Source: an uncultured Bdellovibrionales bacterium
GTDB taxonomy: Bacteria > Patescibacteriota > Minisyncoccia > Moranbacterales > UBA2206
Length of the DNA: 64,000 nucleotides
Reading direction: 5' to 3'
Assembly: GCA_964636505.1 (NCBI GenBank)
Contig: CAZWRY010000002.1
Span: 17,248 to 81,247, forward strand
Shown here one piece after another: positions 6,328-60,794 of this stretch; position 1 is the stretch's first letter; every line of letters starts with the position of its first letter. The position numbers and the translations under genes were made by a program. The notes beneath the pieces were generated by a model. The model did no database searches. It saw nothing but the letters and a program-made list of their open reading frames with translations, and had not been told where the DNA came from.

Positions 6328-8085
6328 TTACTCGGTTGTAACTCTAAGTATCTCCTCTATTGAAGTAAGGCCCATAGCCGCCTTAATAAATCCGTCTTCT
6401 ACCATGCTTAACATTCCGTCCTCCTGGCATTTTTTTTGCATTTCTTCTTCTGATGCCTTATGAGAAATCATTTTTTTCATTTCATCATTCACCTCCAAGA
6501 CTTCAAATATACCCAACCTACCCCTATAGCCTTCTTTATTGCACTGCTCGCATCCGGCCGAACGATAAAATTTTATACTTTTCCATTTATCCTTATCTCC
6601 GGAACTTTCTTTTATCTTCATAGCATCGCTATTTTTTATTATTTCAAATATCCTGTTCATATCATAATTTTTTTCCAGATTCTTAATATCGTCATTATCT
6701 AAAATGTATTCCTTGCGACAATTTGGGCAAAGTTTTCTGACTAATCGTTGGGCAATGATGGAATTTATAGTAGAAGCCAAAAGAAACGGTTCGGCTCCCA
6801 TATCAATGAGCCTGGGAACTGTTCCTATGGCGCTATTAGTGTGTAAAGTTGACAAAACAAGATGTCCGGTCATAGCAGAATGAATAGCCATTTCCATCGT
6901 TTCATTGTCTCTGATTTCACCGACCATTATCACATCCGGATCCTGACGCAAAAGCGAACGTAAACCGGCAGCAAAAGTCAGTCCGACCTTGGGATTAATT
7001 TGAGTCTGGTTGATCCTGACCATTCTATATTCAACCGGGTCTTCTACTGTGCTAATGTTTAGCTCTGGTGTATTTAAGATATCCATTATTGTGTATAAAG
7101 TAGTAGTTTTTCCTGATCCGGTCGGACCGGTCACTAAAATCATCCCGTTTGGTTTTTTGATATGGCGATGAACTGTTTCCAATCCCTTACCCGAAAACCC
7201 GACTTCTTCCAAAGTAAGCCCTTTGGAATTTTCATTCAAAAGACGCATTACGATTTTTTCTCCGTCAAAAATAGGCAAGATGCTTACACGAAAAGAAATT
7301 TTCAAGTCATCTTTTTCAATCTTGAACCTTCCGTCCTGCGGAACGCGATGCTCATCCAGTTTTAAATTAGAGAGAACTTTTATTCTGGCAATGATGCCTT
7401 GCATTACCTGCTTGGGCAAGGTCATCGCATCATGCAAAACTCCGTCAATACGATATCTTACTCTTACTTCTTTTTCGTCCGGTTCAATATGAATATCGCT
7501 GGCCTCTTGCAAAATAGCGTGTTTAATGAGCGTGTCTACTATCCTGATTATTGGTAAACCTTGGGCCACTTTTTCCAAGTCTTCTTCTTTACCTTCTTCC
7601 TTTTCGATGCCCTCTGAATCCTTGGTAATCATATCTCCAAATTCGGCCTTTAAGCTTTTTTCGTAATATTTTAGGACATTATCAATACTTTCCCCTGTCG
7701 TAAGACAAGCTACGACTTTCAATTCCGATTTTTTTTTAATGAAATCAATCGTTTGAATGTCTTCAGGGTTCAACATTGCCACTTTTAATTCTTTGCCTGT
7801 TTTGCTAAAAGCAATTATTTTGTATTTTTTGGCAATCGGTTCCGGAATCATTTGCAGGACTTCTTGAGGAATTATTTCCTTAGTTAAATCAACAAAAGGC
7901 ACGCCCAAAATATAGGCATAAAGTTTTCGTAAATTAATCTCGTCAATGAGACCCTCTTTAAGAAGAATTTCTCCTAATTTTATTTTTTCTTTTTCCGCTT
8001 TCTGATAGGCCTTTTCCAAATCCTCCGCTTTTATTATGTCGGAGTCGCTTATAAATTCCTTCAGTTGTTTGTTTTTTATTTGCAT
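6328..8085 (-). CDS. pilB: Type IV pilus assembly ATPase PilB (GspE family).
   Basis: 585 aa; N-terminal GspII domain, Walker A GPTGSGKTTTLY, C-terminal tetracysteine motif (CPNC...CEQC). Confidence 0.9.
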   Translation of the reverse strand: MQIKNKQLKEFISDSDIIKAEDLEKAYQKAEKEKIKLGEILLKEGLIDEINLRKLYAYILGVPFVDLTKEIIPQEVLQMIPEPIAKKYKIIAFSKTGKELKVAMLNPEDIQTIDFIKKKSELKVVACLTTGESIDNVLKYYEKSLKAEFGDMITKDSEGIEKEEGKEEDLEKVAQGLPIIRIVDTLIKHAILQEASDIHIEPDEKEVRVRYRIDGVLHDAMTLPKQVMQGIIARIKVLSNLKLDEHRVPQDGRFKIEKDDLKISFRVSILPIFDGEKIVMRLLNENSKGLTLEEVGFSGKGLETVHRHIKKPNGMILVTGPTGSGKTTTLYTIMDILNTPELNISTVEDPVEYRMVRINQTQINPKVGLTFAAGLRSLLRQDPDVIMVGEIRDNETMEMAIHSAMTGHLVLSTLHTNSAIGTVPRLIDMGAEPFLLASTINSIIAQRLVRKLCPNCRKEYILDNDDIKNLEKNYDMNRIFEIIKNSDAMKIKESSGDKDKWKSIKFYRSAGCEQCNKEGYRGRLGIFEVLEVNDEMKKMISHKASEEEMQKKCQEDGMLSMVEDGFIKAAMGLTSIEEILRVTTE

Positions 8086-10609: not shown

Positions 10610-13459
10610 CTACAGGTATTTCCCCGTCCAGCTTTTTTTGATTTTTTTGAGCTTGTCCGGTGTACCAGCATAAACAACTTCCCCTCCCTGGTCTCCGCCA
10701 TCCGGTCCCAAATCAATGACCCAATCTGAATTCCTGATCACATCTATATTGTGCTCCACGACCACAACCGTATTGCCTTTATCCACTAGCGCGTCTAACA
10801 CGCCTAATAACATTTTAACATCTTCAAAATGAAGACCGATAGTTGGTTCATCCAAAATATAGAGGGTTTGGCCGGTTGATTTTCTGGCCAATTCCGTAGC
10901 CAGCTTTATTCTTTGCGCTTCTCCGCCGGATAAACTTGTGGCGCTTTGACCAAGCTTAAGGTAGCCCAAGCCCACATCCTCAAGAGTTTTTAATTTTTCA
11001 AAAATCAAAGGCGATTTCTTGAAAAATTTTAAAGCATAAGAAACACTCATGTCCAAAACTTCGGCGATATTGGCTCCTTGATATTCAATATCCAAGGTTT
11101 TACGATTATATCTTGTTCCTCCGCATGATTCACATTTAACATACATATCCGGTAGGAGATACATTTCAATTTTTTTTGTTCCTTCTCCTTGACAATTTTC
11201 GCATCGCCCGCCCTTCATGTTAAAACTAAAACGGCTGGCCGTATAGCCTCTTTTTTTAGCTTCCGGCGTTGCCGCGAAAAGATCGCGAATTAAAGAAAAA
11301 ACACCCGTATAAGTAGCCGCGTTTGACCTTGGTGTCCTTCCAATCGGAGTTTGATTAATGTTAATTACTTTATCAATGTTTTTTATGCCATCAATTTTTC
11401 TGTATTTTCCCGGCACATCCTTGGCTCTATAAAAATATTTGGCCAGATATTTAGCCAAGATATCTGAGACTAACGTTGATTTGCCCGATCCGGAAACACC
11501 CGTGATTGAAACAAATTTGCCCAAAGGAATTTCCACATCAATATTTCTCAGGTTATGCTCGCTGGCGCCGGTTATTTTTATGAATTTTTTATTGCCTTTG
11601 CGATATGTCTTTTTATTCACGACTTTTTTGCGGCCGATAATATAGTCGGCTGTAGCTGTTTTTGACTTGAGAAGCTTTTGAAAATCCCCCTGAAAGATAA
11701 CTTCTCCGCCTTCCTCTCCGGCACCGGGACCCATATCAATAATCCAGTCAGCTTTACGGATAATGTCCTCGTCGTGTTCCACAACTATCAAAGAGTTTCC
11801 GCCTTCTCGCAAAGATTGCATGGTCCCAATTAACTTTTCCGTATCCCGATTATGGAGTCCGATAGAAGGCTCGTCCAAAACATAGGTGATGCCGGTAAGT
11901 TCCGCTCCAATTTGAGTTGCCAAACGAATTCTTTGGGCTTCTCCGCCGGAAATCGATTCTGCCCGGCGAGAAAGAGAAAGATAGTCCAAGCCTACATTTA
12001 TCAGCGCTTCGGTTTTTATCAATATTTCTTTAATAATACCGTTGGCAATTTCTTTCTTGTCCGAACTGTCACAAGAAGCTTTGACTTCTTTTAGAAAAGC
12101 CTTTAGCTTTTCTAGATCCAAATTGACCACATCGTCAATTGATTTTTCACCGATCATAACCGCCAGATATTCCTTTTTTAGTCTTTTGCCTTCACAAGCC
12201 GGACAAACTTTTTCCAACATATATTTTTCCAGGTCGCTGCGGACATATTCAGAAGTTGACTCTTCATATTTTTTCTTAAGAATGGCAGCAACGCCTTCAA
12301 AAGGAACTTCAATCTGCTTAAGTCCGCCCATGTCGTTTTTCTGTTCCACTCTGATCTCTTTTTTGTCCGGTCCATAAAAAATAATTTCCAGAGCTTTAGG
12401 TGAAAGTTTTTTGACCGGAACATCAACAGAAAAAGAATATTCCTTAGCCAAAGCCCTCAAAATATTTAGATAATTGCTCTGTCCGCTCAGTCTTCCGTTA
12501 GATTTACTCCAAGGTAAAATGGCTCCTTCTGAAAGGGTCAGGTTTTTATTTGGGATTACTAAATCCAAATCAACTTCTTTGGTAATTCCAAGGCCGGCGC
12601 AATATCCGCAAGCTCCTTCCGGATTGTTAAAAGAAAAGTGTCTGGGAGTTATTTCATTTATCCTGGTTTGACAAGTATGACAAACAAAATCGCGATTAAA
12701 GACTGAATCTCCTTCTTCTTCGGAAAAAACAATAATAGATCCGCCGCCAACTTTCATGGCTGTTTCAATTGAATCCAAGAGCCTTTCTTCATCCTGGTTT
12801 TCACCCCTAATATTGATTCTATCTACCACCACTTCAATGGCCGAGTTAAACTTATCACTCACAATCAGCAAAGCCTCATTGGTTAACATTATCTTTCCAT
12901 CAAATCTGACTCTGGCGTAACCCAAATGACTGATGCTACGCAAAATTTCACGCGAACTTTTGCCTTCTTCTTTTACTTTAGCCATAATAACTACTTGCGA
13001 ATTTTTGGGAAATTTTAAAATTCTTTCTAAAATTTCCTGGTTGGTTTTCTTGGACATAAGTTCTCCGCAAACCGGACAATAAGGCATTCCGATTTTGGAA
13101 AAAAGAATCCTAAGATAATCATAAATTTCCGTAAGTGTTCCAACAGTTGAACGCGGGCTACGACTCAAACTTTTCTGATCAATGGAAATAGTCGGGCTAA
13201 GATTTTCAATTTTATCCATATCCGGCTTAGCCGCTACATCCAAGAATTGCCGGGCATAGGACGACATTCCCTCCAGATATCTGCGATTGCCTTCCGCATA
13301 AACTAAATCAAAGGCTAAAGATGATTTACCTGAACCTGAAAGCCCGGTTACCACCACCAATTGATTGCGAGGAATATCAATATCCACATTTTTCAGATTA
13401 TTGACTCTGGCCCCGCGAATAATTATCTTATCCCTTGAGGAAGAAACTTTTTTTGACAT
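10610..13459 (-). CDS. uvrA: Excinuclease ABC subunit A (UvrA), copy 1.
   Basis: 949 aa; two ABC modules (GLSGSGKSSLAF..., [11 protein letters not shown]), zinc-finger insertions, LSGGEAQRI signatures. Confidence 0.92.
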   Translation of the reverse strand: MSKKVSSSRDKIIIRGARVNNLKNVDIDIPRNQLVVVTGLSGSGKSSLAFDLVYAEGNRRYLEGMSSYARQFLDVAAKPDMDKIENLSPTISIDQKSLSRSPRSTVGTLTEIYDYLRILFSKIGMPYCPVCGELMSKKTNQEILERILKFPKNSQVVIMAKVKEEGKSSREILRSISHLGYARVRFDGKIMLTNEALLIVSDKFNSAIEVVVDRINIRGENQDEERLLDSIETAMKVGGGSIIVFSEEEGDSVFNRDFVCHTCQTRINEITPRHFSFNNPEGACGYCAGLGITKEVDLDLVIPNKNLTLSEGAILPWSKSNGRLSGQSNYLNILRALAKEYSFSVDVPVKKLSPKALEIIFYGPDKKEIRVEQKNDMGGLKQIEVPFEGVAAILKKKYEESTSEYVRSDLEKYMLEKVCPACEGKRLKKEYLAVMIGEKSIDDVVNLDLEKLKAFLKEVKASCDSSDKKEIANGIIKEILIKTEALINVGLDYLSLSRRAESISGGEAQRIRLATQIGAELTGITYVLDEPSIGLHNRDTEKLIGTMQSLREGGNSLIVVEHDEDIIRKADWIIDMGPGAGEEGGEVIFQGDFQKLLKSKTATADYIIGRKKVVNKKTYRKGNKKFIKITGASEHNLRNIDVEIPLGKFVSITGVSGSGKSTLVSDILAKYLAKYFYRAKDVPGKYRKIDGIKNIDKVININQTPIGRTPRSNAATYTGVFSLIRDLFAATPEAKKRGYTASRFSFNMKGGRCENCQGEGTKKIEMYLLPDMYVKCESCGGTRYNRKTLDIEYQGANIAEVLDMSVSYALKFFKKSPLIFEKLKTLEDVGLGYLKLGQSATSLSGGEAQRIKLATELARKSTGQTLYILDEPTIGLHFEDVKMLLGVLDALVDKGNTVVVVEHNIDVIRNSDWVIDLGPDGGDQGGEVVYAGTPDKLKKIKKSWTGKYL

Positions 13460-13787: not shown

Positions 13788-15086
13788 TTATTTTGTCAAG
13801 AATTCGCTTTTTCTCATCTTTCTGTGATATCCAATTGCAAAACGATGCGCTTCATCTATGATTCTACCTAATAACTCTCTATCGTCTGCTATTTTTTTAA
13901 AATCATTTGAAAATTCTGTAATTGGAAATTGCTTGCCCGCTGGGCACAGCCAGAGATCAGAAATTAGAAATTGGAAATTGGAAGTTTTTCGTGTAGGACC
14001 CTTGGCAACAGCAATAATCGGAACTTTTATTCCTAAGCTCCTTAATAATTTCTCTGCCATGTTTAAGTGTCCTTGCCCTCCATCCAAGAGAATCAAGTGA
14101 GGCATCGGCCAATCATTTTTAAATCTACGTAGCAGCACCTCTTGCATCATTCCGATATCATTAATGCCCTCAACGGTTCTGATTTTGAATTTTCGGTACT
14201 GAGATTTGTTTGGCTGGCCTCCCTCAAAAACCACCATGGAGCCGACTGCGTTTTTTCCGCTAATATTGGAAATGTCGTACGCTTCAATACGAATAGTTTT
14301 TAGTTTATGTTTTTTAGTTTTTAGATCAATTTCAAAATCTTTTGAAATCAAAGCCACATCACGAATATGATTTAGCGCAAAAACTTTATTTCTTATTTCC
14401 GCCGCCTTTTCAAATTCATGATTCTTGGCTGCTAACTGCATTTCTTTTTCCAGTGTTTTAACCAGATTTTTTTTCTTACCTTCCAAAATCATCTGGATAC
14501 CATGGATATTTTTTTGATAATCTTTGAGAGTAATTGCACCGGCGTGTGGTCCCGGACAAAGTCCCAACTGAAAATCCAAACAGCCTTTTTCGGTTTCCTG
14601 CTTATTGGAATGAAAGGGGAAAATACGGCGAATTATTTTGAGCGCTACCTCCATTTGTTTTTTAAAAGTATATGGACCAAAAGCAGTTCGTAGTTTATAG
14701 TTTTTGGTTTGTAGTTTTTTAAAATCAATTTCCGTTTTTCGTAAAATCAAAACTCGCGAAAATTCTTCTTTAGTAATAACGAAATAGGAAAATGATTTAT
14801 CATCTTTAAGTTCAATGTTATATTTCGGCTGATATTTTTTGATCAAATTGCTTTCCAAAATCAAAGCCTCCAGAACAGAATCAGTCTTTTGAAAGTCAAT
14901 ATCGGCAACTTTCGGCATCATAACTTCAATATGATTTCTGGTTTCCGCGCCCCGAAAGTACGAAGCCACCCGGCTTTTTAAATTAGTTGCTTTTCCAATA
15001 TATAAAATATTTTTGGCTTTATCTTTGAAAATATATACTCCGGGATCTGATGGCAATTTGGCAATTTTTATTTTCATCTTTGACAT
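13788..15086 (-). CDS. uvrC: Excinuclease ABC subunit C (UvrC), short form without the C-terminal HhH2 domain.
   Basis: 432 aa; N-terminal GIY-YIG (PGVYIFKDKAKNILYIGKATNLKSRV), UVR domain (EFEKAAEIRNK), RNase H-like endonuclease region (RIEAYDISNISG...LLDGGQGHL...HRFAIGYHRK). Contains in-frame heptamer-repeat insertions. Confidence 0.85.
   Translation of the reverse strand: MSKMKIKIAKLPSDPGVYIFKDKAKNILYIGKATNLKSRVASYFRGAETRNHIEVMMPKVADIDFQKTDSVLEALILESNLIKKYQPKYNIELKDDKSFSYFVITKEEFSRVLILRKTEIDFKKLQTKNYKLRTAFGPYTFKKQMEVALKIIRRIFPFHSNKQETEKGCLDFQLGLCPGPHAGAITLKDYQKNIHGIQMILEGKKKNLVKTLEKEMQLAAKNHEFEKAAEIRNKVFALNHIRDVALISKDFEIDLKTKKHKLKTIRIEAYDISNISGKNAVGSMVVFEGGQPNKSQYRKFKIRTVEGINDIGMMQEVLLRRFKNDWPMPHLILLDGGQGHLNMAEKLLRSLGIKVPIIAVAKGPTRKTSNFQFLISDLWLCPAGKQFPITEFSNDFKKIADDRELLGRIIDEAHRFAIGYHRKMRKSEFLTK
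13921..13985. repeat. Miniature heptamer-repeat element inside uvrC, in frame: ATTGGAAATTG, a GC-rich hairpin segment, then AGAAATT AGAAATT GGAAATT GGAAG.
   Basis: Shares the 11-mer ATTGGAAATTG and AGAAATT tandem units with the rpoB-rpoC spacer at 60730..60775, and a GGCAAG-containing GC-rich segment with the uvrB insertion at 21855..21880. Confidence 0.7.
14295..14324. repeat. AGTTTTT-type heptamer tandem array (4 units) inside uvrC.
   Basis: AGTTTTT AGTTTAT GTTTTTT AGTTTTT; a second array lies at 14685..14720. Confidence 0.6.
14685..14720. repeat. AGTTTWT heptamer tandem array (5 units) inside uvrC.
   Basis: AGTTCGT AGTTTAT AGTTTTT GGTTTGT AGTTTTT; encodes the Lys-rich KKLQTKNYKL segment. 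Confidence 0.6.
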
Positions 15087-15938: not shown

Positions 15939-18824
15939 TTATTTTTTCAAAACATCCCCGAGATATTTAGCAGTGTAACTTTCCTTTTGATATTTGATAA
16001 TTTCTTCCGGCGTTCCGCTTACAATGACTCGCCCGCCTTGCTCTCCGCCTTCCGGTCCCAAATCAATAATCCAGTCAGCTGTTTTGATAATGTCCATATT
16101 GTGCTCAATAACCACCACGGTATTGCCGGCATCAACTAATTTATTAAGTACGCCTAAAAGTTTTTTAATGTCATCAAAATGAAGACCCGTCGTCGGCTCA
16201 TCTAAAATATACAGCGTGTTTCCGGTTGAACGGCGCGCCAGTTCTGTGGCTAATTTTATCCTTTGCGCTTCTCCGCCGGAAAGAGTTGTGGCTGATTGGC
16301 CCAAATGAATATAGTCCAGTCCGACTTCTTCCAAAATTTTAAGCTTGTCATGAATTTCTGGAAAATTTTCAAAGAAAATTTTGCCTTCTGAAACCGTCAT
16401 TTCCAAAACATCGGCAATATTTTTACCTTTATATTTTACTTTCAGAGTTTCACTGTTGTATCTTTTGCCTTTGCAGACATCGCAAGGCAAATAAACGTCT
16501 GGCATAAACTGCATTTCAATTTTCAAAAATCCTTCGCCTTGGCAATTTTCACATCTTCCCCCATTTACATTAAAGGAGAATCTCCCTGGCAAATATCCCT
16601 TGGCTTTAGCATCTTTAGTTTTGGCAAAAAGTTCTCTGATCGGAGAAAAAAGCCCTGTGTAAGTGGCAGGATTAGAACGCGGAGTGCGACCGATTGGAGA
16701 TTGATCAATCATAATTACTTTATTGACATGTTGCGACCCAATTATTTCCGAATGTTTCCCTGGACGATCCAATGATCGCATTATCTTTGAAGCTAAAGAT
16801 TTATACAAAACATCTTCTACTAGAGTTGATTTTCCTGATCCGGAAACTCCAGTCACAACAGTCAAAACTTTGAGTGGAAATTCCACGGTAATATTTTTTA
16901 GATTATTTTCTCTAGCTCCACGCACCACAATCATTTTTTTATTTTTAATCGGACGACGAAAACTGGGGACTTCAATTTTTTCTTCACCACTAAGATATCT
17001 GGCCGTTAAAGATTTTTTGCTTTTCATCACTTCTTGAGGAGAACCTTCGGCCACAATTTCTCCGCCCGCTTTACCTGCGCCTGGACCAATATCAACTAAA
17101 TAATCCGCAGCTCTAATCGTTTCCTCATCATGTTCAACCACAATCAAAGTATTTCCGATATCACGTAAATCCAAAAGTGTTTTTAATAATTTTTTATTAT
17201 CCCGCGCATGCAGACCGACTGATGGCTCATCCAAAATATATAAAACTCCGACTAATTGCGATCCGATTTGAGAAGCCAAACGAATTCTTTGCGTCTCTCC
17301 TCCAGCCAAAGTGGCCGCTGATCTTCCCAGCGTTAAGTATCCAAGGCCAACATTATCCAAAAATCCCAAACGCGCTTCAATTTCTTTCAAAATTCTGCCC
17401 GCAATCAAATCTTCTTTTTTGCTGAGTTTTAATTTTTTGAAAAAATCCAAAGCTTCACTCACACCGACGGTAGAAACTTCGTAGATATTCTTCCCGCTAA
17501 CGGTCACCAGCAAAGCTTCCTTCTTGTATCTTGAGCCATGGCAAACCGAACAAGGATTTTGCGACATATATTTTTCAATGTCTTTTCTCACTCCATCTGA
17601 ATCAGTTTTTGCGTAGCGATCTTCCAAATATCCGGTTATGCCCCGCCAATTCAAATTATATTTCCAAACCGAACCGGTTTTACTGCGCAAAGTTACCGGA
17701 ACTTCTTCGGCTTCTTCTGCCGAAATCGGACAATAAGCATTTTCTTCGCCATAGAGCAAAATATTCAAATTTTCTTGGGATAAATCTCTGATACGAACAT
17801 TATCTTTGATATGAAAATGATTGGTCACCGCTCGTAGAATCGTGCCTTGCCAATTATTTTTTTTGTAGCTCCAAGGCATTATTCCGCCCTCGGCAATCGT
17901 TTTGTTTTTATCAGGAATCACCAAATTAATACCCATTTCTTTTTTAGTTCCCAATCCCTCACAAACCGGACAAGCCCCATAAAGAGAGTTAAAAGAAAAA
18001 AGTCTCGGTTCCATTTCCGGAAAATTTATTTCGTCATGAACCGGACAAGATAATTTTTGATTAAAAATAAGTTCCGCTTCTTTTTGCTTCCTATCTCTTG
18101 TTCCTTGTTTCTTTATTTTCACCAGCCCATCCGACAACTTCAAGGCCTTTTCAGTATCTTCAAAAATACGAGGAATATTTTCATCACTAATAGCCATCGT
18201 ATCCACTACAACATCAATTGTGTGTTTTTTGTATCTATCTAAAGTTATTTTTTCTTTAGGATTAAGCTCAACTTTTTTGCCATTAACATAGGCTTTGGAA
18301 TAACCGCGGCGATACATATCCAAAAGAAGGGCTGAGTATTCACCTTTGCGTCCGCGTACAATCGGACTCAGAATTTCAATTTCTTTTTTATCGCCGACAC
18401 TTAAAATACGATCCACAATTTCATCCGTGGAAAGCTTGGTTATTTCTCGTCCACAAATCGGACAATGAGGAATACCAATTTTGGCATAAAGCAAACGCAA
18501 ATAATCATGAATCTCTGTCACCGTTCCGACAGTTGACCTCGGATTATGCGAAGCTGATTTTTGATCAATAGAAATTGCCGGCGAAAGACCCTCAATGTAG
18601 TCCACATTTGGTTTGTCCATTTGCCCCAAAAATTGCCGAGCGTAACTGGACAAACTTTCCAAATATCGTCTCTGGCCTTCGGCAAAAATAGTATCAAAAG
18701 CTAGCGTTGATTTTCCGCTACCGGAAATCCCCGTAAATACAACAAATTTATTGCGCGGCAAATTCAGATTTATATTCTTAAGGTTATGCTCTCTCGCCCC
18801 GCGAATGATGATTTCGTCTTTCAT
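15939..18824 (-). CDS. uvrA: Excinuclease ABC subunit A paralogue (UvrA, copy 2), full length.
   Basis: 961 aa; same architecture as copy 1 ([23 protein letters not shown], zinc fingers) but clearly diverged in sequence. Confidence 0.9.
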
Positions 18825-21090: not shown

Positions 21091-23142
21091 TCATTTTACC
21101 TTCAATTTTCGTAACTCGGAGATTTCATCGCGAATAATAGCCGCACTTTCAAACTGAAGACTGCGAGCCGCTTCTTTCATATCCTTTTCTCTTTGCTTAA
21201 TATACCCCGCAATGTTTTCCAGGCTTTCCAAATTGACAAATTCTTTGGAAATTTCCGGTTTGATTTCATGATCCACAATAGATTGAATTTTTTTCTGAAT
21301 AGTCTGAGGAGTAATGTGATGCTTTTTATTATACTCAGCTTGAATTTTTCTTCGGCGATTGGTTTCATCAATCGCTCGCTTCATTGAACCGGTAATTTGA
21401 TCGGCATACAAAATAACCCGCCCGGAAACATTTCTGGCCGCACGTCCGATTGTTTGAATAAGTGAAGTTTCACTGCGCAAAAATCCTTCCTTATCCGCAT
21501 CCAAAACCGCTACTAATTTAACTTCCGGCAAATCCAGTCCTTCACGCAATAAGTTTACTCCAACCAGAACATCAATTTCCCCCCGACGCAATTTTTCCAA
21601 AATTCTGACCCGATCCAAGGTTTCCACATTAGAATGCAAATATTCCGCTTTGATTTTATTTTCCTTTAAGAAATCGGATAAATCTTCGGCCATTTTTTTG
21701 GTAAGCGTCGTAATTAAAACTCGACCATTATCCTCCACTACTTTTCCAATTTCAATTAAAACATCTTTGACTTGTCCTTGGGTTGATTTTATCGCGAGCT
21801 CAGGATCAATGAGACCTGTTGGACGAATAACTTGCTCCACAATACCGTATTTTGCATCTTGCCTACCGGCGAGACAGATATTTTTTAATTTGTTTTTAAT
21901 TTGCGATTTGGAATTTATTTGGAATTTAGAATTTAGAATTTGTGATTTGATATATTCATACGGCCCAGGTGTCGCTGAAGTAAAAATTACCTGGTTTGTT
22001 TTTTCTTCAAATTCAGAAAATCTGAGCGGACGATTTTCATAGGCACTGGGCAAACGAAAACCATTATCAATCAAAGCGGTCTTGCGAGCCCGATCACCAT
22101 TAAACATGGCATTCAGCTGCGGCACGGTCACATGCGATTCATCAATGACCAAAAGATAGTCTTTATTAAAGTAATCCATCAATGTATATGGCGGTTCGCC
22201 TTTTTTTCTTTCAGTCAAATACAAAGAATAATTTTCAATACCATTGCAATAGCCGACTTCGCGCATCATTTCAATGTCCTGCTTGGTTCTTCTTTTCAAT
22301 CTTTCCGCTTCCAATAATTTATTTTCTTTTTTCAAATAAGCGACTCTGCCTCGCATCTCTATCTCTATCCTTTTTAATGCTTCTTCCATCAAGCCTTCAG
22401 GAACCACAAAATGTTTGGCTGGATAAATCAAAGTTTGTTTCAAGGTTCCCAGCTCTTCACCGGTCAAAAAATCATATTCCACAATTTTCTTTACCCTGCC
22501 CTTTTCAGCATTAATTCTGGTCACAATTTCGCGATCTGTCGGCATAATTTCCAATGTTTCACCGGTAAGTCTGAATTTGCCGCGGCTAAGCAATTCGCTT
22601 CTTTGAAACTGCATATCAATCAACTCTTTTATTTTTTCTTCTCGTTTGAATTCTTCGCCCACTTTTACTTCAAAACTGATATCCCGATAAAAATCCGGCG
22701 AACCCAAACCATAGATACAAGAAACAGAAGCCACAATAATCACATCACTCCGTGAAAGCAAGGCGGAAGTTGAAGCATGGCGCAAACGATCAATTTCATC
22801 ATTAATCTGCGCCTCTTTTTCAATATATGTGTCCGAAGAAGCGATGTAGGCTTCCGGCTGATAATAGTCATAGTAAGAAACAAAATATTCCACCGCATTC
22901 TTGGGAAAAAACACGCGAAATTCTTGCGCCAATTGGGCTGCCAAAGTTTTGTTGGGCGCAATCACCAAGGTTGGTTTTTGTACTTTTTCAATGACATTGG
23001 CAATTGTGAAAGTTTTACCCGATCCCGTCACACCCAAAAGCGTCTGGAATTTTTGTCCCTTTTTGAGTCCTTCCGTCAGCTTTTTAATCGCCTCTGGCTG
23101 ACTTCCGGCCGGTTTAAATTTTTTATTCAGAATAAATTTCAT
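21091..23142 (-). CDS. uvrB: Excinuclease ABC subunit B (UvrB) carrying an in-frame insertion of about 28 aa.
   Basis: 683 aa; helicase motifs (GVTGSGKT, DESH), beta-hairpin region, C-terminal UVR domain (FESAAIIRDEI). The insertion YIKSQILNSKFQINSKSQIKNKLKNICLAGRQDAKYG lies between ...SATPGPYE and IVEQVIRPTGL. Confidence 0.92.
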   Translation of the reverse strand: MKFILNKKFKPAGSQPEAIKKLTEGLKKGQKFQTLLGVTGSGKTFTIANVIEKVQKPTLVIAPNKTLAAQLAQEFRVFFPKNAVEYFVSYYDYYQPEAYIASSDTYIEKEAQINDEIDRLRHASTSALLSRSDVIIVASVSCIYGLGSPDFYRDISFEVKVGEEFKREEKIKELIDMQFQRSELLSRGKFRLTGETLEIMPTDREIVTRINAEKGRVKKIVEYDFLTGEELGTLKQTLIYPAKHFVVPEGLMEEALKRIEIEMRGRVAYLKKENKLLEAERLKRRTKQDIEMMREVGYCNGIENYSLYLTERKKGEPPYTLMDYFNKDYLLVIDESHVTVPQLNAMFNGDRARKTALIDNGFRLPSAYENRPLRFSEFEEKTNQVIFTSATPGPYEYIKSQILNSKFQINSKSQIKNKLKNICLAGRQDAKYGIVEQVIRPTGLIDPELAIKSTQGQVKDVLIEIGKVVEDNGRVLITTLTKKMAEDLSDFLKENKIKAEYLHSNVETLDRVRILEKLRRGEIDVLVGVNLLREGLDLPEVKLVAVLDADKEGFLRSETSLIQTIGRAARNVSGRVILYADQITGSMKRAIDETNRRRKIQAEYNKKHHITPQTIQKKIQSIVDHEIKPEISKEFVNLESLENIAGYIKQREKDMKEAARSLQFESAAIIRDEISELRKLKVK
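21845..21952. repeat. Miniature heptamer-repeat element inside uvrB, in frame: a GC-rich segment plus a GGAATTT / AGAATTT tandem array.
   Basis: GATTTGGAATTTATTTGGAATTTAGAATTTAGAATTTGTGATTTG plus GCCTACCGGCGAGACAG; the encoded ICLAGRQ parallels LCPAGKQ encoded by the uvrC element. Confidence 0.65.
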
Positions 23143-44112: not shown

Positions 44113-45279
44113 TTGCAATCCTCGCTTAAATGTCTATTTTCACTGCTAATTATTATTTTCAACATTATGACAAAAATACTCTACCAAAATGAGCAAAGAA
44201 AACGGGAATTTCTCGAGCATTTGAAAGGTGCGGAAGGTTTCTCTGAAAGCTCCATCAATACCTTTGCTGAAGCCGTAGACCAATGGCAGATTTTCACCGA
44301 AAACGATGACTTTGCTAATTTCAACAAGTCAAAGGCTCTATCTTTTCGAGACTGGCTGAAAACTAGAAAATCCAACACTGAAAACGGCACAATTTCACTG
44401 GTAACACAATATAACTATCTTCGCCGAGTAAAAAGATTTTTCACTTGGCTAGCGGGGCAACCAGTTTATAAAAACAAAATTTTAAAGAATGACGTGGAAT
44501 TTTTACGCCTTTCTAAGGGAGATGCCCGCATAGCTCGCCAAGGCACGACCAAGCAAATGCCCACTTTTGAAGAAGCAAGGGCAATAATTGAAAGCATAGC
44601 GATAAAAAACGAAATAGATATGCGAGACCGAGCATTTATCTCCTTTATTCTTACTACTGGTATTCGCATTCACGCCGCCGCAACCTTGCGAATGAAAAGT
44701 TTTGACGCGAAAAACAGACTGATAGACCAAAATCCGGCAGACGGTATAAAAACCAAAAATTCAAAACGGATACTAACCACTTTCTTTCCTATAGGCTGGG
44801 ATGAACCGGAAAAATATTTTTTGGAATGGTTTGATTATTTAAAATCAAAAGGTTTCCGGCCAGATGACCCGATTTTTCCAGCTACACTAAATAATTTGAT
44901 TTCTGGAAGACAAGCTTACAGCCAAAATTCAATCGGCAGAAATTTTTGGAGCGGCACGAGCGGTGCAAGAAAAATTTTTGAGAAAAGATGTAAAAATGCT
45001 GACCTGCCATATTTTCATCCACATTCTTTCCGCCATTTGGTAGTTAACATTTTGAGTAAAACCCGTCTCACAGAAGAAGAGAAACGGGCCATAAGTCTTA
45101 ACCTTGGGCACGCCAATGTCGGCACGACTTTTGGTTCATATGGCTATGGAAGTATGACTGAAGATGACGCAGTCAAAATAGTGCAGAAATTGAAAGCAAC
45201 CAATCAAGACGGGAGCAATTTAGTCCTTTCAGATGATGAAAGAGCTGTTTTTGAGCGAGTTATAAATAGAATTTTATAA
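44113..45279 (+). CDS. Tyrosine-type site-specific recombinase/integrase. The true start is probably the ATG at 44167 (MTKILYQNEQ...).
   Basis: 388 aa; N-terminal SAM-like core-binding domain; catalytic R...HSFRH...LGHANVGTTFGSYGY (R-H-R-Y). Confidence 0.8.
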   Translation: MQSSLKCLFSLLIIIFNIMTKILYQNEQRKREFLEHLKGAEGFSESSINTFAEAVDQWQIFTENDDFANFNKSKALSFRDWLKTRKSNTENGTISLVTQYNYLRRVKRFFTWLAGQPVYKNKILKNDVEFLRLSKGDARIARQGTTKQMPTFEEARAIIESIAIKNEIDMRDRAFISFILTTGIRIHAAATLRMKSFDAKNRLIDQNPADGIKTKNSKRILTTFFPIGWDEPEKYFLEWFDYLKSKGFRPDDPIFPATLNNLISGRQAYSQNSIGRNFWSGTSGARKIFEKRCKNADLPYFHPHSFRHLVVNILSKTRLTEEEKRAISLNLGHANVGTTFGSYGYGSMTEDDAVKIVQKLKATNQDGSNLVLSDDERAVFERVINRIL

Positions 45280-45297
45280 ATAATACACGAGAAGAGA

Positions 45298-45528
45298 ATG
45301 GCTATCAAAGCTCGGATACAATTTCAGAGGATTTATAAAAATCCCGAAAAAACAATTTCTTTCAGAGAGGCTTTTATGTGCTCGGAAATTTCAACAAAAA
45401 AGATACATCAGCCCTCAGTGGATTATCAGCTCGCCGAAAATGAAGACGGGTTGTTTGAGAAAGCCTTTGACATTTTGTTTGAAGAAACATTGAGGCAAAA
45501 TAATGATTTGACAACTAATGACAATTAA
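45298..45528 (+). CDS. Hypothetical small protein.
   Basis: 76-aa ORF between the two recombinase genes; no motif. Confidence 0.3.
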   Translation: MAIKARIQFQRIYKNPEKTISFREAFMCSEISTKKIHQPSVDYQLAENEDGLFEKAFDILFEETLRQNNDLTTNDN

Positions 45529-45543
45529 GTATATAATAAAATT

Positions 45544-45723
45544 ATGGAATTTCTCACACTTGAACAAGTGGCTAAATACTTTGGAGTTCATCCTCGCACC
45601 GTTATGCGTTGGCTTAAGCAAGGCAGTCTCAAAGGTTATAAGTTGGGCAAAGGCAAAACGGCTCTTTTACGCATCCCCAAATCAGAAGTAAGTAAATTTT
45701 TAGAAAAACATAAAATCAAATGA
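45544..45723 (+). CDS. Excisionase / MerR-like HTH DNA-binding small protein; its stop overlaps the recombinase start (ATGA).
   Basis: 59 aa, below the ORF-track cutoff: MEFLTLEQVAKYFGVHPRTVMRWLKQGSLKGYKLGKGKTALLRIPKSEVSKFLEKHKIK; helix-turn-helix_17-like. Confidence 0.55.
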   Translation: MEFLTLEQVAKYFGVHPRTVMRWLKQGSLKGYKLGKGKTALLRIPKSEVSKFLEKHKIK

Positions 45724-47360
45724 ACTCGTTGAATGATGACAAATCAATAAAGCTTATAGCCACTTACGCTCGTGTTTCTGAAAATCCTGATGATGAAGAA
45801 GGGACTATAAAAAATCAGTCAATGACTTTTAATGAATTGGCTGAAAAGAATAATTGGCAGATAATCCAAGAATATAAAGATGATGATTGGAGTGGCGACA
45901 TTTTGGAACGACCCGCACTTGATAAACTTCGGCTTGATGCAAAAAACAAAAACAGAGTTTGGGAAGCAGTCCTTATTTATGACCCAGACCGTTTGGCTCG
46001 CCGATACTCTTATCAAGAACTGGTGATGGATGAATTGCGGGAAGCAGGCATTGAGGTGATTTTTGTAACCGTTCCCGCTCCCCGAAATACTGAAGAAAAA
46101 ATAATGTATGGCTTCAAGGGCTTGTTTGCCGAGTATGAACGAGCAAAAATTGCCGAGAGATTTCGTTTAGGCAAACTTCGCAAAGCCAGAAACGGACATA
46201 TTTTGACAACACAACCTTTATACGGCTATAACTATATTCCAAAACAAGGTGATAGGCACGGCTATTATGAAATCAATCCGATAGAAGCAAGAGTTGTTAA
46301 AATGGTATTTTCTTGGATTGCTAATGACGGAATGACTTTGAGGGGCGTGGTAAAAAAATTGCACGAGTTGGGCATCAGACCACGCAAAAGCAAAAGGGAT
46401 GTTTGGAACACGGGCACATTGAGCACAATGCTTCGGCATAGAGGATATATTGGTGAGGCACACTGGGGCAGTTCGTATGCAGTTGTTCCTGAAAGGCCGC
46501 TCAAAAATGAAAAATATAAAAAAGTAAAAAAGACCAGCCGCAGGATTAGACCAAGAGAAGAATGGATAACAATTCCTGTTCCAGCAATTATTGAGACAGA
46601 ATTATTTGAAAAAGCGAACACTCAATTGCAAGCAAATTTTGCATTATGCAAACGTAACAAAAGAAATGAATATCTCTTGGCTGGTAAAATTGAATGCGTC
46701 TGTGGCAGAAAAAGAACTGGCGAAGGATATTACAATAAGCCAAATCTTTATTATCGTTGCAGTGATAGAGTGCTAAATTTTCCCTTACCATCAAAATGCA
46801 AGGAAAGAGGCATCAATGCCAGAGTAGCTGATGAGCTTGTTTGGAAAAAAATTGCAAGACTAATGAGTTCTCCAGAATTGCTGGCAGAGCAAGTCAATCG
46901 CTGGTTCAAAAACAAGCAAAGTAAAACGGGAACGGTATTGATTGATATTGAAGCTCTAAAAAAAGAAGTTGAAAAACTGGGCAAACAAGTTGAACGATAT
47001 AATAAAGGCTATGGAGTGGGAGCGTTCACTCTGGATGAGCTCAAGGAATACACTGACCCTCTACGAGAGCAAATTAGCCAGCTTCAAGCCCAAATTTCAA
47101 AAGCTACAAGTGAAAGCAATCAAACTCATCTGAAAGCACCAAATGAGCAAGAAATGGAAGCATTTGCCGAAAAAGCGAGAAAGACCCTTCAAAACTTGAG
47201 TTTTACTCTCAAACGTGCGATAATTTTAAATACTGTTGAAAAAGTAATTGCTTCAAAAGAACATTTACGGGTAAACGGTTATTTACCCCTAAATGTCTCA
47301 TTGTGTTATGAAGATAGGAATTGTAGGACTGCCGAATGTGGGCAAAAGCACTCTGTTTAA
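45720..47360 (+). CDS. Large serine recombinase (resolvase, recombinase and zinc-ribbon domains).
   Basis: 546 aa; catalytic YARVSE serine, DxxRLAR motif, recombinase domain, Cys-rich zinc ribbon (CVCGRK...CSDR), coiled coil; 3' end overlaps ychF by 50 nt. Confidence 0.88.
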   Translation: MNSLNDDKSIKLIATYARVSENPDDEEGTIKNQSMTFNELAEKNNWQIIQEYKDDDWSGDILERPALDKLRLDAKNKNRVWEAVLIYDPDRLARRYSYQELVMDELREAGIEVIFVTVPAPRNTEEKIMYGFKGLFAEYERAKIAERFRLGKLRKARNGHILTTQPLYGYNYIPKQGDRHGYYEINPIEARVVKMVFSWIANDGMTLRGVVKKLHELGIRPRKSKRDVWNTGTLSTMLRHRGYIGEAHWGSSYAVVPERPLKNEKYKKVKKTSRRIRPREEWITIPVPAIIETELFEKANTQLQANFALCKRNKRNEYLLAGKIECVCGRKRTGEGYYNKPNLYYRCSDRVLNFPLPSKCKERGINARVADELVWKKIARLMSSPELLAEQVNRWFKNKQSKTGTVLIDIEALKKEVEKLGKQVERYNKGYGVGAFTLDELKEYTDPLREQISQLQAQISKATSESNQTHLKAPNEQEMEAFAEKARKTLQNLSFTLKRAIILNTVEKVIASKEHLRVNGYLPLNVSLCYEDRNCRTAECGQKHSV

Positions 47361-48517: not shown

Positions 48518-48564
48518 GAAATGTTTTGTTTCATGTTTCATGTTCTATGTTTTATGAGTGTATG
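48518..48564 (+). repeat. NNNNATG heptamer ladder (CATGTT units) ending at the rpsF start codon.
   Basis: ATG triplets at 48521, 48533, 48540, 48547, 48554 and 48562 (spacing 12,7,7,7,8); the last is the S6 start. Confidence 0.65.
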
Positions 48565-49993: not shown

Positions 49994-50038
49994 TATTTTC
50001 ATGTTATATGTTCCATGTTTTATGTTTCATGAATTATG
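49994..50038 (+). repeat. Perfect 7-nt NNNNATG ladder of six units ending at the efp start codon.
   Basis: ATG at 50001, 50008, 50015, 50022, 50029 and 50036, each exactly 7 nt apart; the last is the efp start. Confidence 0.7.
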
Positions 50039-51059: not shown

Positions 51060-51154
51060 GTTGTTTTTTGTTTCCGCATGAGGCGCCTTCCTGCCGGTAT
51101 GCAGGGATTCGCCTTGGTTGGAAAAAATTACTAATTAAGCCTGGATTTAACACT

Positions 51155-51192
51155 AAAAAATAAAAAAGCGGGAATTCACCCGCTCCTTTTTT
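51155..51192 (-). terminator. Rho-independent terminator of recA (bidirectional).
   Basis: AGCGGG AATTCA CCCGCT flanked by A-run and T-run. Confidence 0.7.
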
Positions 51193-60640: not shown

Positions 60641-60780
60641 ATTATAAATAAATTTTCAAATCTCAATTTTCAATTTTCAATCAATGATCAATTTTCAATT
60701 TTTTAATTTCAAAAATTTAGTCATTGAATCATTGGAAATTGTTTAGAAATTAGAAATTAGAAATTAGAAATTTGTTAATC
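60641..60780. repeat. AT-rich heptamer tandem arrays (TCAATTT x about 5, then ATTGGAAATTG plus AGAAATT x4) filling the rpoB-rpoC spacer.
   Basis: Direct reading; shares the 11-mer ATTGGAAATTG and AGAAATT units with the uvrC-internal element. Confidence 0.75.
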
Positions 60781-60794
60781 AAAAAATTCATTGC

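What the first reader, a model, noticed from the sequence alone, without database searches (positions are those of the whole stretch)
21845..21952. UvrB carries an in-frame insertion of about 28 aa made of the same repeat family
Relative to canonical UvrB (...SATPGxYE-[about 8 aa]-VVxQVVRPTGLLDP), this protein has YIKSQILNSKFQINSKSQIKNKLKNICLAGRQDAKYG inserted. The DNA is a GGAATTT/AGAATTT heptamer array plus a GC-rich segment (GCCTACCGGCGAGACAG) that shares GGCAAG and Cys-x-AG-(R/K)-Q coding with the uvrC element. Two DNA-repair genes of the same pathway are therefore hit in frame by related elements.
Basis: partly seen in the sequence, partly recalled or inferred. Interest (0 to 1): 0.65.

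Follow-up and report, generated by a model that had tools for sequence, protein, structure and literature searches.

The report
Repeat DNA inserted in-frame in UvrB
The DNA-repair helicase UvrB of this tiny-genome (Moranbacteria, CPR) bacterium carries about 30 extra, probably floppy amino acids, encoded by a 7-base tandem repeat plus a worn copy of a small palindromic repeat; this kind of in-frame "junk" insertion is already known from other bacteria, but here it turns over unusually fast.

Summary
uvrB (21091-23142, minus strand) has a 37-aa linker (residues 397-433, window 21844-21954) where solved UvrB structures and half of its closest relatives have 6-7 aa. Residues 402-431 have no counterpart in any solved UvrB.

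The DNA is an AAATTCY heptamer array, the top-scoring tandem repeat in the window. It is followed by a 21-nt GC-rich core, a decayed copy of the 20-nt palindrome CCTGCCTGCCGGCAGGCAGG. That palindrome recurs in Moranbacteria and in at least 120 metagenome contigs, both intergenic and in frame in housekeeping genes.

AlphaFold predicts a disordered loop. The site is a hot spot:
- 69 of 120 close homologues carry inserts of at least five unrelated palindromic types.
- Parsimony needs at least 27 filled/empty changes.
- Two strains about 99% identical differ only by this cassette.

The link to uvrC is only partly supported. The uvrC GC core is a private 24-nt insertion not demonstrably related, and its "heptamers" are conserved coding sequence. 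In a relative, however, one 45-nt palindrome sits in frame in uvrB, uvrA and uvrC.

Best reading: tolerated REP/RPE-like selfish DNA at a permissive linker. This is a new variant of a known kind.

The parts
21091..23142 (-). uvrB gene (683 aa), host of the insertion
   Evidence: ORF list and translation. 100% match to P0001 with UvrB Pfam domains. 15 solved UvrB structures matched at E<=1e-134.
21844..21954 (-). Expanded linker, residues 397-433 (YIKSQ...AKYG). It lies between motif III (FTSATP) and the first strand of the C-terminal helicase domain (IVEQVIRPTG).
   Evidence: Coordinates. The linker is 37 aa here, against 6 aa in 49 of 116 parsed close homologues and 4-8 aa in 70 of 81 diverse UvrB representatives.
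21850..21939 (-). Net inserted segment (residues 402-431, 90 nt, 28% G+C) with no counterpart in any solved UvrB
   Evidence: PDB phmmer split. pLDDT <50 for residues 407-430 in a model with mean pLDDT 86. Open only in the uvrB frame on the sense strand; only 7% of composition-matched shuffles are stop-free in frame.
21898..21949 (-). AT-rich heptanucleotide array (AAATTCY on the coding strand, GGAATTT/AGAATTT on the plus strand), imperfect, about 7 units
   Evidence: TRF rows at 21887-21949 with periods 7, 14, 18 and 25 and scores 41-65, above all 20 shuffles. Sequence read.
21880..21903 (-). Second A-rich repeat stretch (AAATTAAAAAC x2, coding KNKLKN) between the heptamers and the GC core
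   Evidence: TRF period 11, 2.0 copies, 100% matches, at 21882-21903.
21857..21879 (-). GC-rich core (codons ICLAGRQ at 21859-21879; hairpin TCTTGCC-TACC-GGCGAGA at 21857-21874). It is a decayed copy of the 20-nt palindrome family F1, and it replaces about 18 nt of a second heptamer array ([ACT]A[AG]ATAC x5) that is intact in the closest relatives.
   Evidence: Exact 12-mer CCGGTAGGCAAG: 3 hits at <=1 mismatch against 0.19 expected. Second-best local alignment to the F1 consensus in the window. DNA alignment with L001. Hairpin -4.6 kcal/mol on the plus strand, z = -2.6.
51086..51105 (.). Second F1-family palindrome in the window (CCTTCCTGCCGGTATGCAGG, 3 mismatches from consensus), intergenic between efp and recA
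   Evidence: best match in the window, score 28. Hairpin -7.9 kcal/mol.
13935..13958 (-). Private 24-nt GC-rich hairpin insertion in uvrC (DLWLCPAG). Same kind of event, but homology to the uvrB core is not shown.
   Evidence: Absent from L001/L005 UvrC and from the other 119 homologues. Hairpin -6.4 kcal/mol, z = -1.4. F1 alignment score only 16. No relative in 2.2 Mb of loci.

Best explanation
The segment is selfish or neutral repeat DNA fixed in frame at a structurally permissive linker of UvrB. It has two components.

1. An AT-rich 7-nt microsatellite. Such arrays are common in this genome, both between genes and in genes, and presumably grow and shrink by replication slippage.
2. A worn copy of a REP-like 20-nt GC-rich palindrome (F1, CCTGCCTGCCGGCAGGCAGG). 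F1 is dispersed in Moranbacteria and related uncultivated bacteria, in terminator-like intergenic positions and inside genes.

Because UvrB must stay functional, only variants that keep the frame and avoid stop codons survive. The product is a roughly 30-aa disordered loop between the two RecA-like helicase halves, probably with little effect on repair.

The site turns over quickly. Different palindrome families occupy the same codon position in different lineages. Whole cassettes, including about 8 flanking codons, are exchanged between strains by short-patch homologous recombination bounded by the invariant SATP and VIRPTG coding blocks.

Shown: the insertion and its absence elsewhere; its composition; F1 family membership of the core; the predicted disorder; the hot-spot behaviour; within-species polymorphism; clean in-frame insertions of identical palindromes in several genes of relatives.

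Inferred: slippage as the source of the heptamers; transposition (perhaps by RAYT-like Y1 transposases) as the source of the palindromes; recombination as the means of swapping; functional neutrality.
For: Insertion and absence elsewhere.

Disordered loop: residues 407-430 have pLDDT <50 within a confident model (mean pLDDT 86, pTM 0.81).

Permissive site: 11 of 81 diverse UvrB representatives have longer linkers, and P0123 carries a whole Ser_hydrolase domain there.

Hot spot among the 120 closest homologues (72-100% identity, Moranbacteria):
- 69 are filled and 51 empty, intermingled on the tree.
- Fitch parsimony needs at least 27 state changes.
- The inserts fall into at least five unrelated types. 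At DNA level four of them are GC-rich palindromes.

Within-species polymorphism: L001 (filled) and L003 (empty) are about 99% identical over 11.7 kb and 100% identical in uvrB except for a 135-nt versus 45-nt cassette. Each allele was seen in two assemblies.

F1 family:
- 4 hits at <=3 mismatches in 186 kb of Moranbacteria loci, against 1 in 1,406 kb of other bacteria.
- At least 120 metagenome stretches.
- In frame inside PheRS, AtpA, UvrC, PurH, DinB, GH115 and RNase J domains.
- L163 and L088 show the same layout of a palindrome inside a heptamer array.

Mobility of sister families:
- The 45-nt F2 lies in uvrB, uvrA2 and uvrC of L089 and is absent from sister genome L090.
- F2 and the 39-nt F3 sit at the identical bond in trpS of the 99%-identical strains L003 and L001.
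- A Y1_Tnp transposase flanked by identical 25-nt palindromes lies 34 nt upstream of uvrB in L213.

Precedent: intragenic REPs in uvrA, uvrB and uvrC and in tRNA synthetases of other phyla (PMC3733652).
Against: - Within the 64-kb window the F1 family has only two recognisable copies, and blastn-short finds no other copy of the insert. Multi-copy status in this particular genome is therefore not shown.
- The uvrB core has 7 mismatches to the 20-mer without gaps, and its hairpin is weak (-2.6 kcal/mol on the coding strand, z = -0.7).
- The association between F1 and 7-nt periodic flanks is only mild: lag-7 autocorrelation 0.318 against 0.270.
- No RAYT-like gene is in the window, and no transposase has been tied to F1.
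- Flank residues correlate almost perfectly with filled or empty state (48 of 50 against 64 of 66). This could instead reflect structural co-adaptation or long-term balanced alleles rather than neutral turnover.
- Neutrality of the loop is assumed, not tested.
Confidence: 0.7

Rival explanations
1. Purely local low-complexity expansion. The whole insert arose in place by slippage of AT-rich heptamers in a tolerant loop, and the GC-rich core is just drifted sequence, not a copy of any dispersed element.
For: - Period-7 arrays are over-represented in the window: 11 rows against 0-4 in shuffles.
- The closest relatives (L001, L089) have only heptamers where the window has its GC core.
- No second copy of the insert exists in the window.
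- The core's hairpin is weak.
Against: - The core carries an exact 12-mer of the F1 palindrome and is the second-best F1 match in 64 kb.
- F1 or its variant sits inside heptamer arrays at the same uvrB site in L088 and in L163.
- Unrelated perfect palindromes occupy the same site in relatives.
- Identical 45-nt palindromes lie in different genes. Slippage cannot produce these.
Confidence: 0.12
2. Adaptive or regulatory element. The variable loop, or the 7-nt repeat as a frameshift-prone contingency tract, modulates nucleotide excision repair. It might act through mutator switching, partner binding or evasion of an inhibitor, and the filled and empty cassettes would be kept by balancing selection.
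For: - Filled and empty allele classes with distinct flanks coexist across clades and within a species, with deep divergence confined to the cassette.
- Several NER genes are decorated in the same genomes, while S6, SSB, RNase J and others in the same loci are not.
- Di Nocera et al. speculated on mutator effects of REPs in uvr genes.
- The repeat unit is not a multiple of three.
Against: - The insert sequence is not conserved and is predicted disordered.
- Only two perfect heptamer copies are present, too few for efficient phase variation.
- All 69 filled homologues are in frame. The protein database would, however, hide frameshifted alleles.
- The same palindromes decorate unrelated enzymes.
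- The uvr genes are clustered and make up most of the sampled loci, so local hopping and their size can explain the apparent bias.
Confidence: 0.1
3. A spliced element (mini-intein or intron-like) or an assembly or gene-calling artefact, so that the mature UvrB lacks the segment.
For: - The cassette swaps together with flanking codons, superficially like co-conversion during homing.
- CPR bacteria are known for insertions in rRNA genes (own knowledge).
Against: - Thirty residues are far too few for an intein, and the Cys/Ser...His-Asn-Cys/Ser/Thr junction residues are absent (sequence).
- The segment is kept stop-free only in the uvrB frame, as expected if it is translated.
- The same protein is seen on independent NCBI and Logan contigs, and related alleles appear in many assemblies.
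- No Rfam or intron search was run, so RNA splicing is excluded only by the frame and stop argument.
Confidence: 0.03

Closest known systems
Intragenic REPs (GTAG-/CGTC-tagged palindromic repeats) in replication and repair genes; Di Nocera et al. 2013, PMC3733652
   Same: Short (20-45 nt) GC-rich palindromes are found mostly between genes but also in frame inside uvrA, uvrB, uvrC, other repair genes and tRNA synthetases. They encode 7-30 extra residues, often in linkers. Different REPs sit at about the same site in orthologues; recB of Xanthomonas is the published case.
   Different: - The host is a CPR (Moranbacteria) lineage, which the paper does not list.
- F1 lacks a terminal GTAG or CGTC tag.
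- The palindrome is embedded in a 7-nt microsatellite.
- Turnover at one codon position is extreme: at least 27 changes among 120 close homologues, and polymorphism at about 99% identity.
- Whole cassettes with their flanking codons are exchanged.
Rickettsia palindromic elements (RPE); Ogata et al. 2000, as summarised in PMC3184786 and PMC3733652
   Same: Selfish palindromic DNA inserted in frame in housekeeping genes of a reduced genome. The ORF is preserved and the insertions are tolerated at non-critical sites. R. conorii uvrB carries two such elements.
   Different: RPEs are about 105-146 bp and form recognisable sequence families within Rickettsia. Here the units are 20-45 nt, unrelated in sequence, and combined with heptamer arrays. 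The window's copy is heavily decayed.
REP/RAYT systems (REPtrons): REPs mobilised by IS200-like Y1 (HUH) transposases
   Same: - The palindromes are small.
- The clean F2 and F3 insertions show no target-site duplication.
- A Y1_Tnp gene flanked by identical palindromes exists in a related genome next to uvrB, and homologues occur on three F1-bearing contigs.
   Different: - No such gene is in the window.
- The palindromes flanking the L213 and L104 transposases are not F1, F2 or F3.
- The NCBIfam RAYT score is far below its cut-off (28 against 80 bits).
- Mobilisation is inferred only.
Simple-sequence contingency loci (phase-variable non-triplet repeats inside ORFs)
   Same: A tandem repeat whose unit (7 nt) is not a multiple of three lies inside a coding sequence.
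   Different: The array is short and imperfect. Every allele seen is in frame, and the array encodes a tolerated loop rather than switching the gene on and off.

Membership tests
REP (repetitive extragenic palindrome) superfamilies | Short (about 20-40 bp) GC-rich imperfect palindrome able to form a stem-loop | tested here: met
   The F1 consensus is a perfect 20-nt palindrome (L087, L090). The window copy folds as a 7-bp stem with one G-T pair on the plus strand, -4.6 kcal/mol, z = -2.6.
REP (repetitive extragenic palindrome) superfamilies | Many dispersed copies in the same genome, mostly downstream of genes | tested here: inconclusive
   Only 2 F1-like copies are in the 64-kb window, at 21857 and 51086. 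At lineage level there are 4 hits in 186 kb of Moranbacteria loci and at least 120 metagenome stretches. The rest of this genome was not available.
REP (repetitive extragenic palindrome) superfamilies | Conserved GTAG or CGTC tetranucleotide at one end of the palindrome | tested here: not met
   F1 begins with CCTG and ends with CAGG. GTAG occurs only at the centre, in the Y=T variant and in the window copy. The type E insert of L214 (GTAGAGACGAGGCA|TGCCTCGTCTCTAC) does carry the tag.
REP (repetitive extragenic palindrome) superfamilies | Cognate RAYT (Y1 transposase) gene flanked by the same REPs | tested here: not met
   tblastn with the L213 Y1_Tnp protein finds nothing in the window. RAYT-like genes in L213 and L104 are flanked by other palindromes.
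Rickettsia palindromic elements (RPE) | In-frame insertion in protein-coding genes with the ORF preserved, at sites tolerated by the fold | tested here: met
   The ORF is continuous and the C-terminal helicase domain downstream of the insert is intact. The insert is a low-confidence loop in the model. It is stop-free only in the gene's frame.
Rickettsia palindromic elements (RPE) | Element of about 105-146 bp belonging to the RPE sequence families | tested here: not met
   The units here are 20-45 nt, against the RPE sizes given in PMC3184786. No direct alignment to RPE sequences was made.
MITE | Terminal inverted repeats plus a target-site duplication flanking the element | tested here: not met
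   Filled and empty comparisons for F2 and F3 in uvrB, uvrA2, uvrC and trpS show clean 39- or 45-nt insertions with no consistent duplication. For the window's own cassette no empty site with matching flanks exists.
Intein | At least about 130 aa, with an N-terminal Cys/Ser and a C-terminal His-Asn followed by Cys/Ser/Thr | tested here: not met
   The insert is 30-37 aa and lacks these junction residues.
Phase-variable simple-sequence contingency locus | Long, nearly perfect tract of a non-triplet unit in an ORF, with frameshifted (off) alleles in the population | tested here: inconclusive
   Only two perfect AAATTCT copies are present. All 69 filled homologues are in frame. The protein database cannot show frameshifted alleles, and no reads were examined.

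The most novel reading that the evidence does not exclude
The UvrB linker, and equivalent single positions in UvrA2, UvrC and TrpRS, would be a targeted landing pad. There, a guild of short palindromic elements (F1, F2, F3 and others) and heptamer arrays would be actively inserted, replaced by one another and removed on time scales shorter than 1% genome divergence. The agent could be RAYT-like Y1 transposases or another hairpin-directed mechanism. Excision-repair proteins of these reduced genomes would then carry strain-specific, rapidly changing peptide tags. This would be a first RPE-like system for the Candidate Phyla Radiation, possibly with consequences for repair capacity or mutation rate.
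Probability: 0.2. Interest if true: 0.7.

Novelty: new variant of a known kind. Interest (0 to 1): 0.5.

Why it matters
- It shows that ultra-small CPR genomes, usually described as streamlined, still carry proliferating palindromic and microsatellite DNA that invades conserved housekeeping genes.
- It gives a natural map of permissive sites in UvrB, UvrA and UvrC.
- It provides strain-resolving markers: filled and empty alleles differ between strains about 99% identical.
- It is a practical warning for annotation, profile searches and phylogenies of CPR proteins, because alignments split at these inserts.
- If the turnover is enzyme-driven and biased towards excision-repair genes, it would bear on an open question raised for REPs in other phyla: whether such insertions tune repair and mutation rates.

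Tried and rejected
1. blastn-short of both elements against the window gave only 9-14-nt chance matches. There is no high-identity dispersed repeat inside 64 kb.
2. A scan for perfect GC-rich hairpins gave three unrelated hits. A GC-island scan was dominated by conserved coding motifs. Neither isolates a family.
3. The search for related loci in genome contigs was swamped by the universal UvrB motif YYDYYQPE. Those 80 loci served afterwards as negative controls.
4. A fuzzy-regex search timed out and was replaced by Hamming scans.
5. The idea of a composite 'heptamer array + palindrome' element was tested on 161 flanks of F1 copies. There is only a mild lag-7 excess, so it was not adopted as a rule.
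6. The idea that heptamer arrays are accumulated 7-bp target-site duplications was rejected. The clean F2 and F3 insertions make no duplication.
7. The idea that the 'empty' allele is a simple deletion derivative of the filled one was rejected. In L001 against L003, 24 nt upstream of the array are only 50% identical (my count from the, 40 alignment) in an otherwise identical gene.
8. An antisense-terminator reading of the core was considered. The scan flags it, but the number of terminator-like sites equals the shuffle expectation (2 against 1.7).
9. F1 as the flanking REP of a RAYT-like gene was checked in L112 and L104. The transposase genes are flanked by other palindromes.
Full report
**What is there**

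The window (about 37% G+C) carries an excision-repair cluster on the minus strand:
- uvrA 10610-13459
- uvrC 13788-15086
- a second uvrA 15939-18824
- uvrB 21091-23142

The closest homologues of UvrB and UvrC are all from Candidatus Moranbacteria or the Parcubacteria group, that is, the Candidate Phyla Radiation.

It lies between FTSATPGPYE (helicase motif III) and IVEQVIRPTGLIDP.

On the coding strand the DNA has three parts:
- an imperfect array AAATCAC AAATTCT AAATTCT AAATTCC AAATAAATTCC AAATCGC
- an A-rich 11-mer repeat
- a GC-rich core ATC TGT CTC GCC GGT AGG CAA, followed by GAT GCA AAA TAC

**Is it more than chance, and is it an insertion?**

Tandem Repeats Finder gives overlapping rows at 21887-21949 (periods 7, 14, 18, 25) with scores up to 65. 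This is the highest score in the window. Twenty shuffles that keep local composition give maxima of 39-61. They give 8-25 rows against 54 observed, and 0-4 period-7 rows against 11 observed.

Against all PDB chains, each of 15 solved UvrB sequences aligns in two pieces. The first ends at query 397-401 and the second starts at 432-434. In the best match (9gy7_E) chain residue 405 borders both pieces, so residues 402-431 (window 21850-21939) are extra. The same split is seen for nearly all of the best 150 representatives of 1.84 billion proteins. Among 81 of those that could be parsed, 70 have a 4-8-aa linker.

**Structure**

An AlphaFold2 model built on a 77-sequence alignment has mean pLDDT 86 and pTM 0.81. 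Residues 407-430 fall below 50, between confident blocks of 90-96 before and 84-92 after. This indicates a disordered loop between the two helicase halves.

The site is generally permissive. Eleven of the 81 diverse UvrB representatives have linkers of 9-208 aa, and one (P0123) carries a complete Ser_hydrolase domain (PF06821) there.

The 90-nt insert is open only in the uvrB frame on the sense strand. Only 7% of composition-matched shuffles are stop-free. The third heptamer reads AAATTCC rather than AAATTCT, which avoids an in-frame TAA. The segment is therefore under the constraint expected of translated sequence.

**A hot spot**

In a MAFFT alignment of the 120 best UvrB homologues (72-100% identity), the base length is 652 aa and most length variation sits at this one position. 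Sixty-nine sequences are filled, with 5-43 extra residues, and 51 are empty.

On a neighbour-joining tree built without the insert columns the two states are intermingled to the tips. Fitch parsimony needs at least 27 changes.

The inserts are of several unrelated kinds:
- type A: heptamer-coded KSQIxNxKSQINSKSQ, as in this window
- type B: VIAS..KQS...PRNDN
- type C: SPLP/GEG/GRMRG
- type D: APKAPxGALGAK
- type E: VETRHASSL

At DNA level types B to E are GC-rich palindromes. One example is GCGCCTAAAGCGCCA-CT-TGGCGCTTTAGGCGC in L213. Another is the GTAG-tagged 28-nt perfect palindrome GTAGAGACGAGGCA|TGCCTCGTCTCTAC in L214. L005 has TCTCCCCTT-GGA-AAGGGGAGA (-8.9 kcal/mol, z = -4.5).

**Polymorphism within a species**

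L001 (protein P0002, filled) and L003 (P0005, empty) are syntenic contigs about 99% identical over 11.7 kb. Their uvrB genes are 100% identical except for one cassette. L001 has 135 nt and L003 has 45 nt, bounded by GCGACACC (SATP) and GTTATTCGTCC (VIRP). Each allele is seen in a second, independent assembly (L002, L004).

The eight codons flanking the insert change together with it. Across the tree the flanks track the state:
- Filled alleles read YE[LIMFY]xKS...G[IV][IV]EQ, which is canonical-like (compare YELEHSPGVVEQ of Bacillus caldotenax UvrB, from memory). Sixty-four of 66 have a hydrophobic first residue.
- Empty alleles read YE[KNR]xNSxx. Forty-eight of 50 have a polar first residue.

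I read this as two old allele classes moved among strains by short-patch recombination within the invariant flanking blocks. Structural co-adaptation or balancing selection cannot be excluded.

**What the GC core is**

The closest filled relatives (L001, L089, P0007-P0012) have a second heptamer array ([ACT]A[AG]ATAC x5, coding NTKYxIxDTKY). The window instead has ICLAGRQDAKY, so about 18 nt were replaced by 21 GC-rich nt.

Other Moranbacteria carry a perfect 20-nt palindrome, F1 = CCTGCCTGCCGGCAGGCAGG, in these places:
- in the uvrB insert of L087
- as a 21-nt variant flanked by (GAAATCC)x4 in the uvrB insert of L088
- twice in frame in uvrA of L088
- in a terminator-like intergenic position in L090

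With 3 or fewer mismatches F1 occurs 4 times in 186 kb of Moranbacteria DNA, against once in 1,406 kb of other bacterial UvrB loci.

The window's core contains the exact 12-mer CCGGTAGGCAAG. With one mismatch or fewer the pattern has 3 hits against 0.19 expected. In a local-alignment scan of the whole window with the F1 consensus, the best hit is an intergenic copy at 51086-51105 (score 28) and the second is the uvrB core (score 22). Two of 20 shuffled windows reach 22 anywhere. Because the location was fixed in advance by the finding, this is good evidence that the core is a decayed F1 copy.

By my own estimate, uniform composition would give of the order of one hit per 10^11-10^12 bases; the size of the collection is not stated.

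Among the 80 loci returned, the palindrome lies in frame inside the conserved domains of PheRS-alpha, ATP synthase alpha, UvrC, PurH, DinB, a GH115 hydrolase and RNase J. L163 reads KSQINIKSQISN-LPAGRQ-VNIKSQI, the same layout as here. The association with 7-nt periodic flanks is nevertheless only mild.

**Sister palindromes move**

L089 and L090 are sister genomes, with UvrA2 96% identical. L089 carries a 45-nt palindrome, F2 = CCCGCCTCGACTCGCGGAAACGACCGCTCGTCGACGCGAGGCGGG, three times within 8 kb. All three copies are in frame: in uvrB (a different site from the linker), in uvrA2 and in uvrC. All are absent from L090, as clean 45-nt insertions without target duplication.

The same F2 sits in trpS of L003. 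The 99%-identical strain L001 has a different 39-nt palindrome (F3) at exactly the same bond, GAT|TTT. L006 and the window are empty there. F3 recurs in a 105-nt form in uvrB of L089, and in an intergenic position in L001.

In these loci S6, SSB, RNase J, PGI, the first uvrA and a 379-aa protein show no such indels. However, the uvr genes make up most of the sampled DNA, so a bias towards repair genes is suggestive rather than established.

**A candidate engine**

In L213 a 221-aa gene 34 nt upstream of uvrB matches Pfam Y1_Tnp (31.5 bits, cut-off 23). It matches the NCBIfam REP-associated tyrosine transposase model only weakly (28 bits, cut-off 80). It is flanked on both sides by the identical palindrome TTGACGAAGGTTGAACCTTCGTCAA.

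Homologues occur on three of the 80 F1-selected contigs and on none of the 80 control loci. Their flanking palindromes are not F1, and the window has no such gene. Mobilisation by Y1 transposases is therefore an inference.

**The uvrC comparison**

Aligned with L001, L005 and 119 further homologues, the window's UvrC has a private 8-aa insertion, DLWLCPAG (24 nt, 13935-13958). It sits within SNFQFLIS|KQFPITEFS, a stretch conserved across Moranbacteria UvrC. The 'heptamers' there are therefore ordinary, if low-complexity, coding sequence.

The inserted hairpin (TGCCC-AGC-GGGCA plus GCT/AGC; -6.4 kcal/mol, z = -1.4) scores only 16 against F1, like 10-20 other places in the window. It has no relative in 2.2 Mb of fetched DNA. 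It is the same kind of event as the uvrB core: a short GC-rich hairpin dropped into AT-rich repetitive coding sequence. Common descent of the two cores is not shown.

**Comparison with what is known**

Di Nocera et al. (PMC3733652) describe REPs inside genes. Many are in uvrA, uvrB, uvrC, uvrD, polA, recBCD and tRNA synthetase genes. Rickettsia conorii uvrB carries two, and different REPs lie at about the same site in Xanthomonas recB. The Rickettsia palindromic elements of Ogata et al. are the classic case (PMC3184786).

The present case works like these. Four things differ:
- the host lineage; three full-text searches found no description for CPR or Patescibacteria
- the absence of a terminal GTAG or CGTC tag on F1
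- the embedding in a 7-nt microsatellite
- the very fast, cassette-wise turnover at one codon position

I therefore class it as a new variant of a known kind, of moderate interest.

**Verdict**

The best explanation (confidence about 0.7) is tolerated selfish repeat DNA, a heptamer microsatellite plus a decayed REP-like palindrome, in a permissive disordered linker of UvrB, which turns over by insertion, slippage and short-patch recombination.

Noticed in passing
window 48527-48556 and 49997-50031: Heptamer arrays that each contain ATG (TGTTTCA/TTTCATG, 4-5 units) lie immediately upstream of the likely start codons of rpsF (S6) and efp. They place several ATGs 7 nt apart in all three frames. 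The mechanical TTG start at 48526 would translate the first array, but the Pfam S6 match begins only at residue 14.
   Followed up: partly
window 60641-60794: The rpoB-rpoC spacer consists largely of two heptamer arrays on the coding strand: (TTTCTAA)x4 at 100% identity and (GAAAATT)x8. The first unit is the same as the TAATTTC repeats in the uvrC coding sequence.
   Followed up: partly
window 13788-15086, and 120 homologues: UvrC here is only 432 aa (403-487 aa in relatives). The precomputed Pfam domains are GIY-YIG, UVR, UvrC_M and the RNase H domain, and no C-terminal helix-hairpin-helix domain is listed. UvrC also has at least four further insertion hot spots in Moranbacteria: alignment columns 126-165, 286-309, 337-349 and 498-531.
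   Followed up: partly
window 10610-13459 and 15939-18824: Two full-length uvrA paralogues flank uvrC. Only the second (961 aa here, 966-1038 aa in relatives) shows variable in-frame palindromic inserts. The first is indel-free and 92% identical between the window and L001.
   Followed up: partly
L213 7916-8642: A RAYT-like Y1 transposase gene (221 aa) is bracketed by identical 25-nt palindromes, directly upstream of uvrB in a Moranbacteria MAG (GCA_964535415.1). A third copy of the palindrome is at 7076.
   Followed up: partly
L112 5633-5660 and 5413-5440: Another RAYT-like gene has a near-copy of its own upstream palindrome (ATGTTAGACATCGAATGTTTAACAT) inside its coding sequence, apparently in frame.
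   Followed up: no
P0123 (UvrB representative, 796 aa): A complete Ser_hydrolase alpha/beta-hydrolase domain (residues 431-578) is inserted at the same UvrB linker. P0126 and P0194 have 128- and 70-aa inserts there with no Pfam match.
   Followed up: partly
window 44113-47360: A tyrosine integrase-like ORF (388 aa) and a large serine recombinase-like ORF (546 aa) lie side by side. The end of the second overlaps the start of the next gene at 47293. The names come from reading the translations only. This may be a remnant of an integrated element.
   Followed up: no
L001 7101-7466, L003 7200-7565, L087 16152-16526, L211 15246-15713: Small 23S_rRNA_IVP/bAvd-family genes recur near the uvr cluster in several relatives. 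None was found in the corresponding part of the window.
   Followed up: no
window 51167-51184: A perfect hairpin, AGCGGG-AATTCA-CCCGCT, is flanked by A- and T-runs downstream of recA. It looks like a bidirectional intrinsic terminator, distinct from the F1 copy 60 nt upstream.
   Followed up: no
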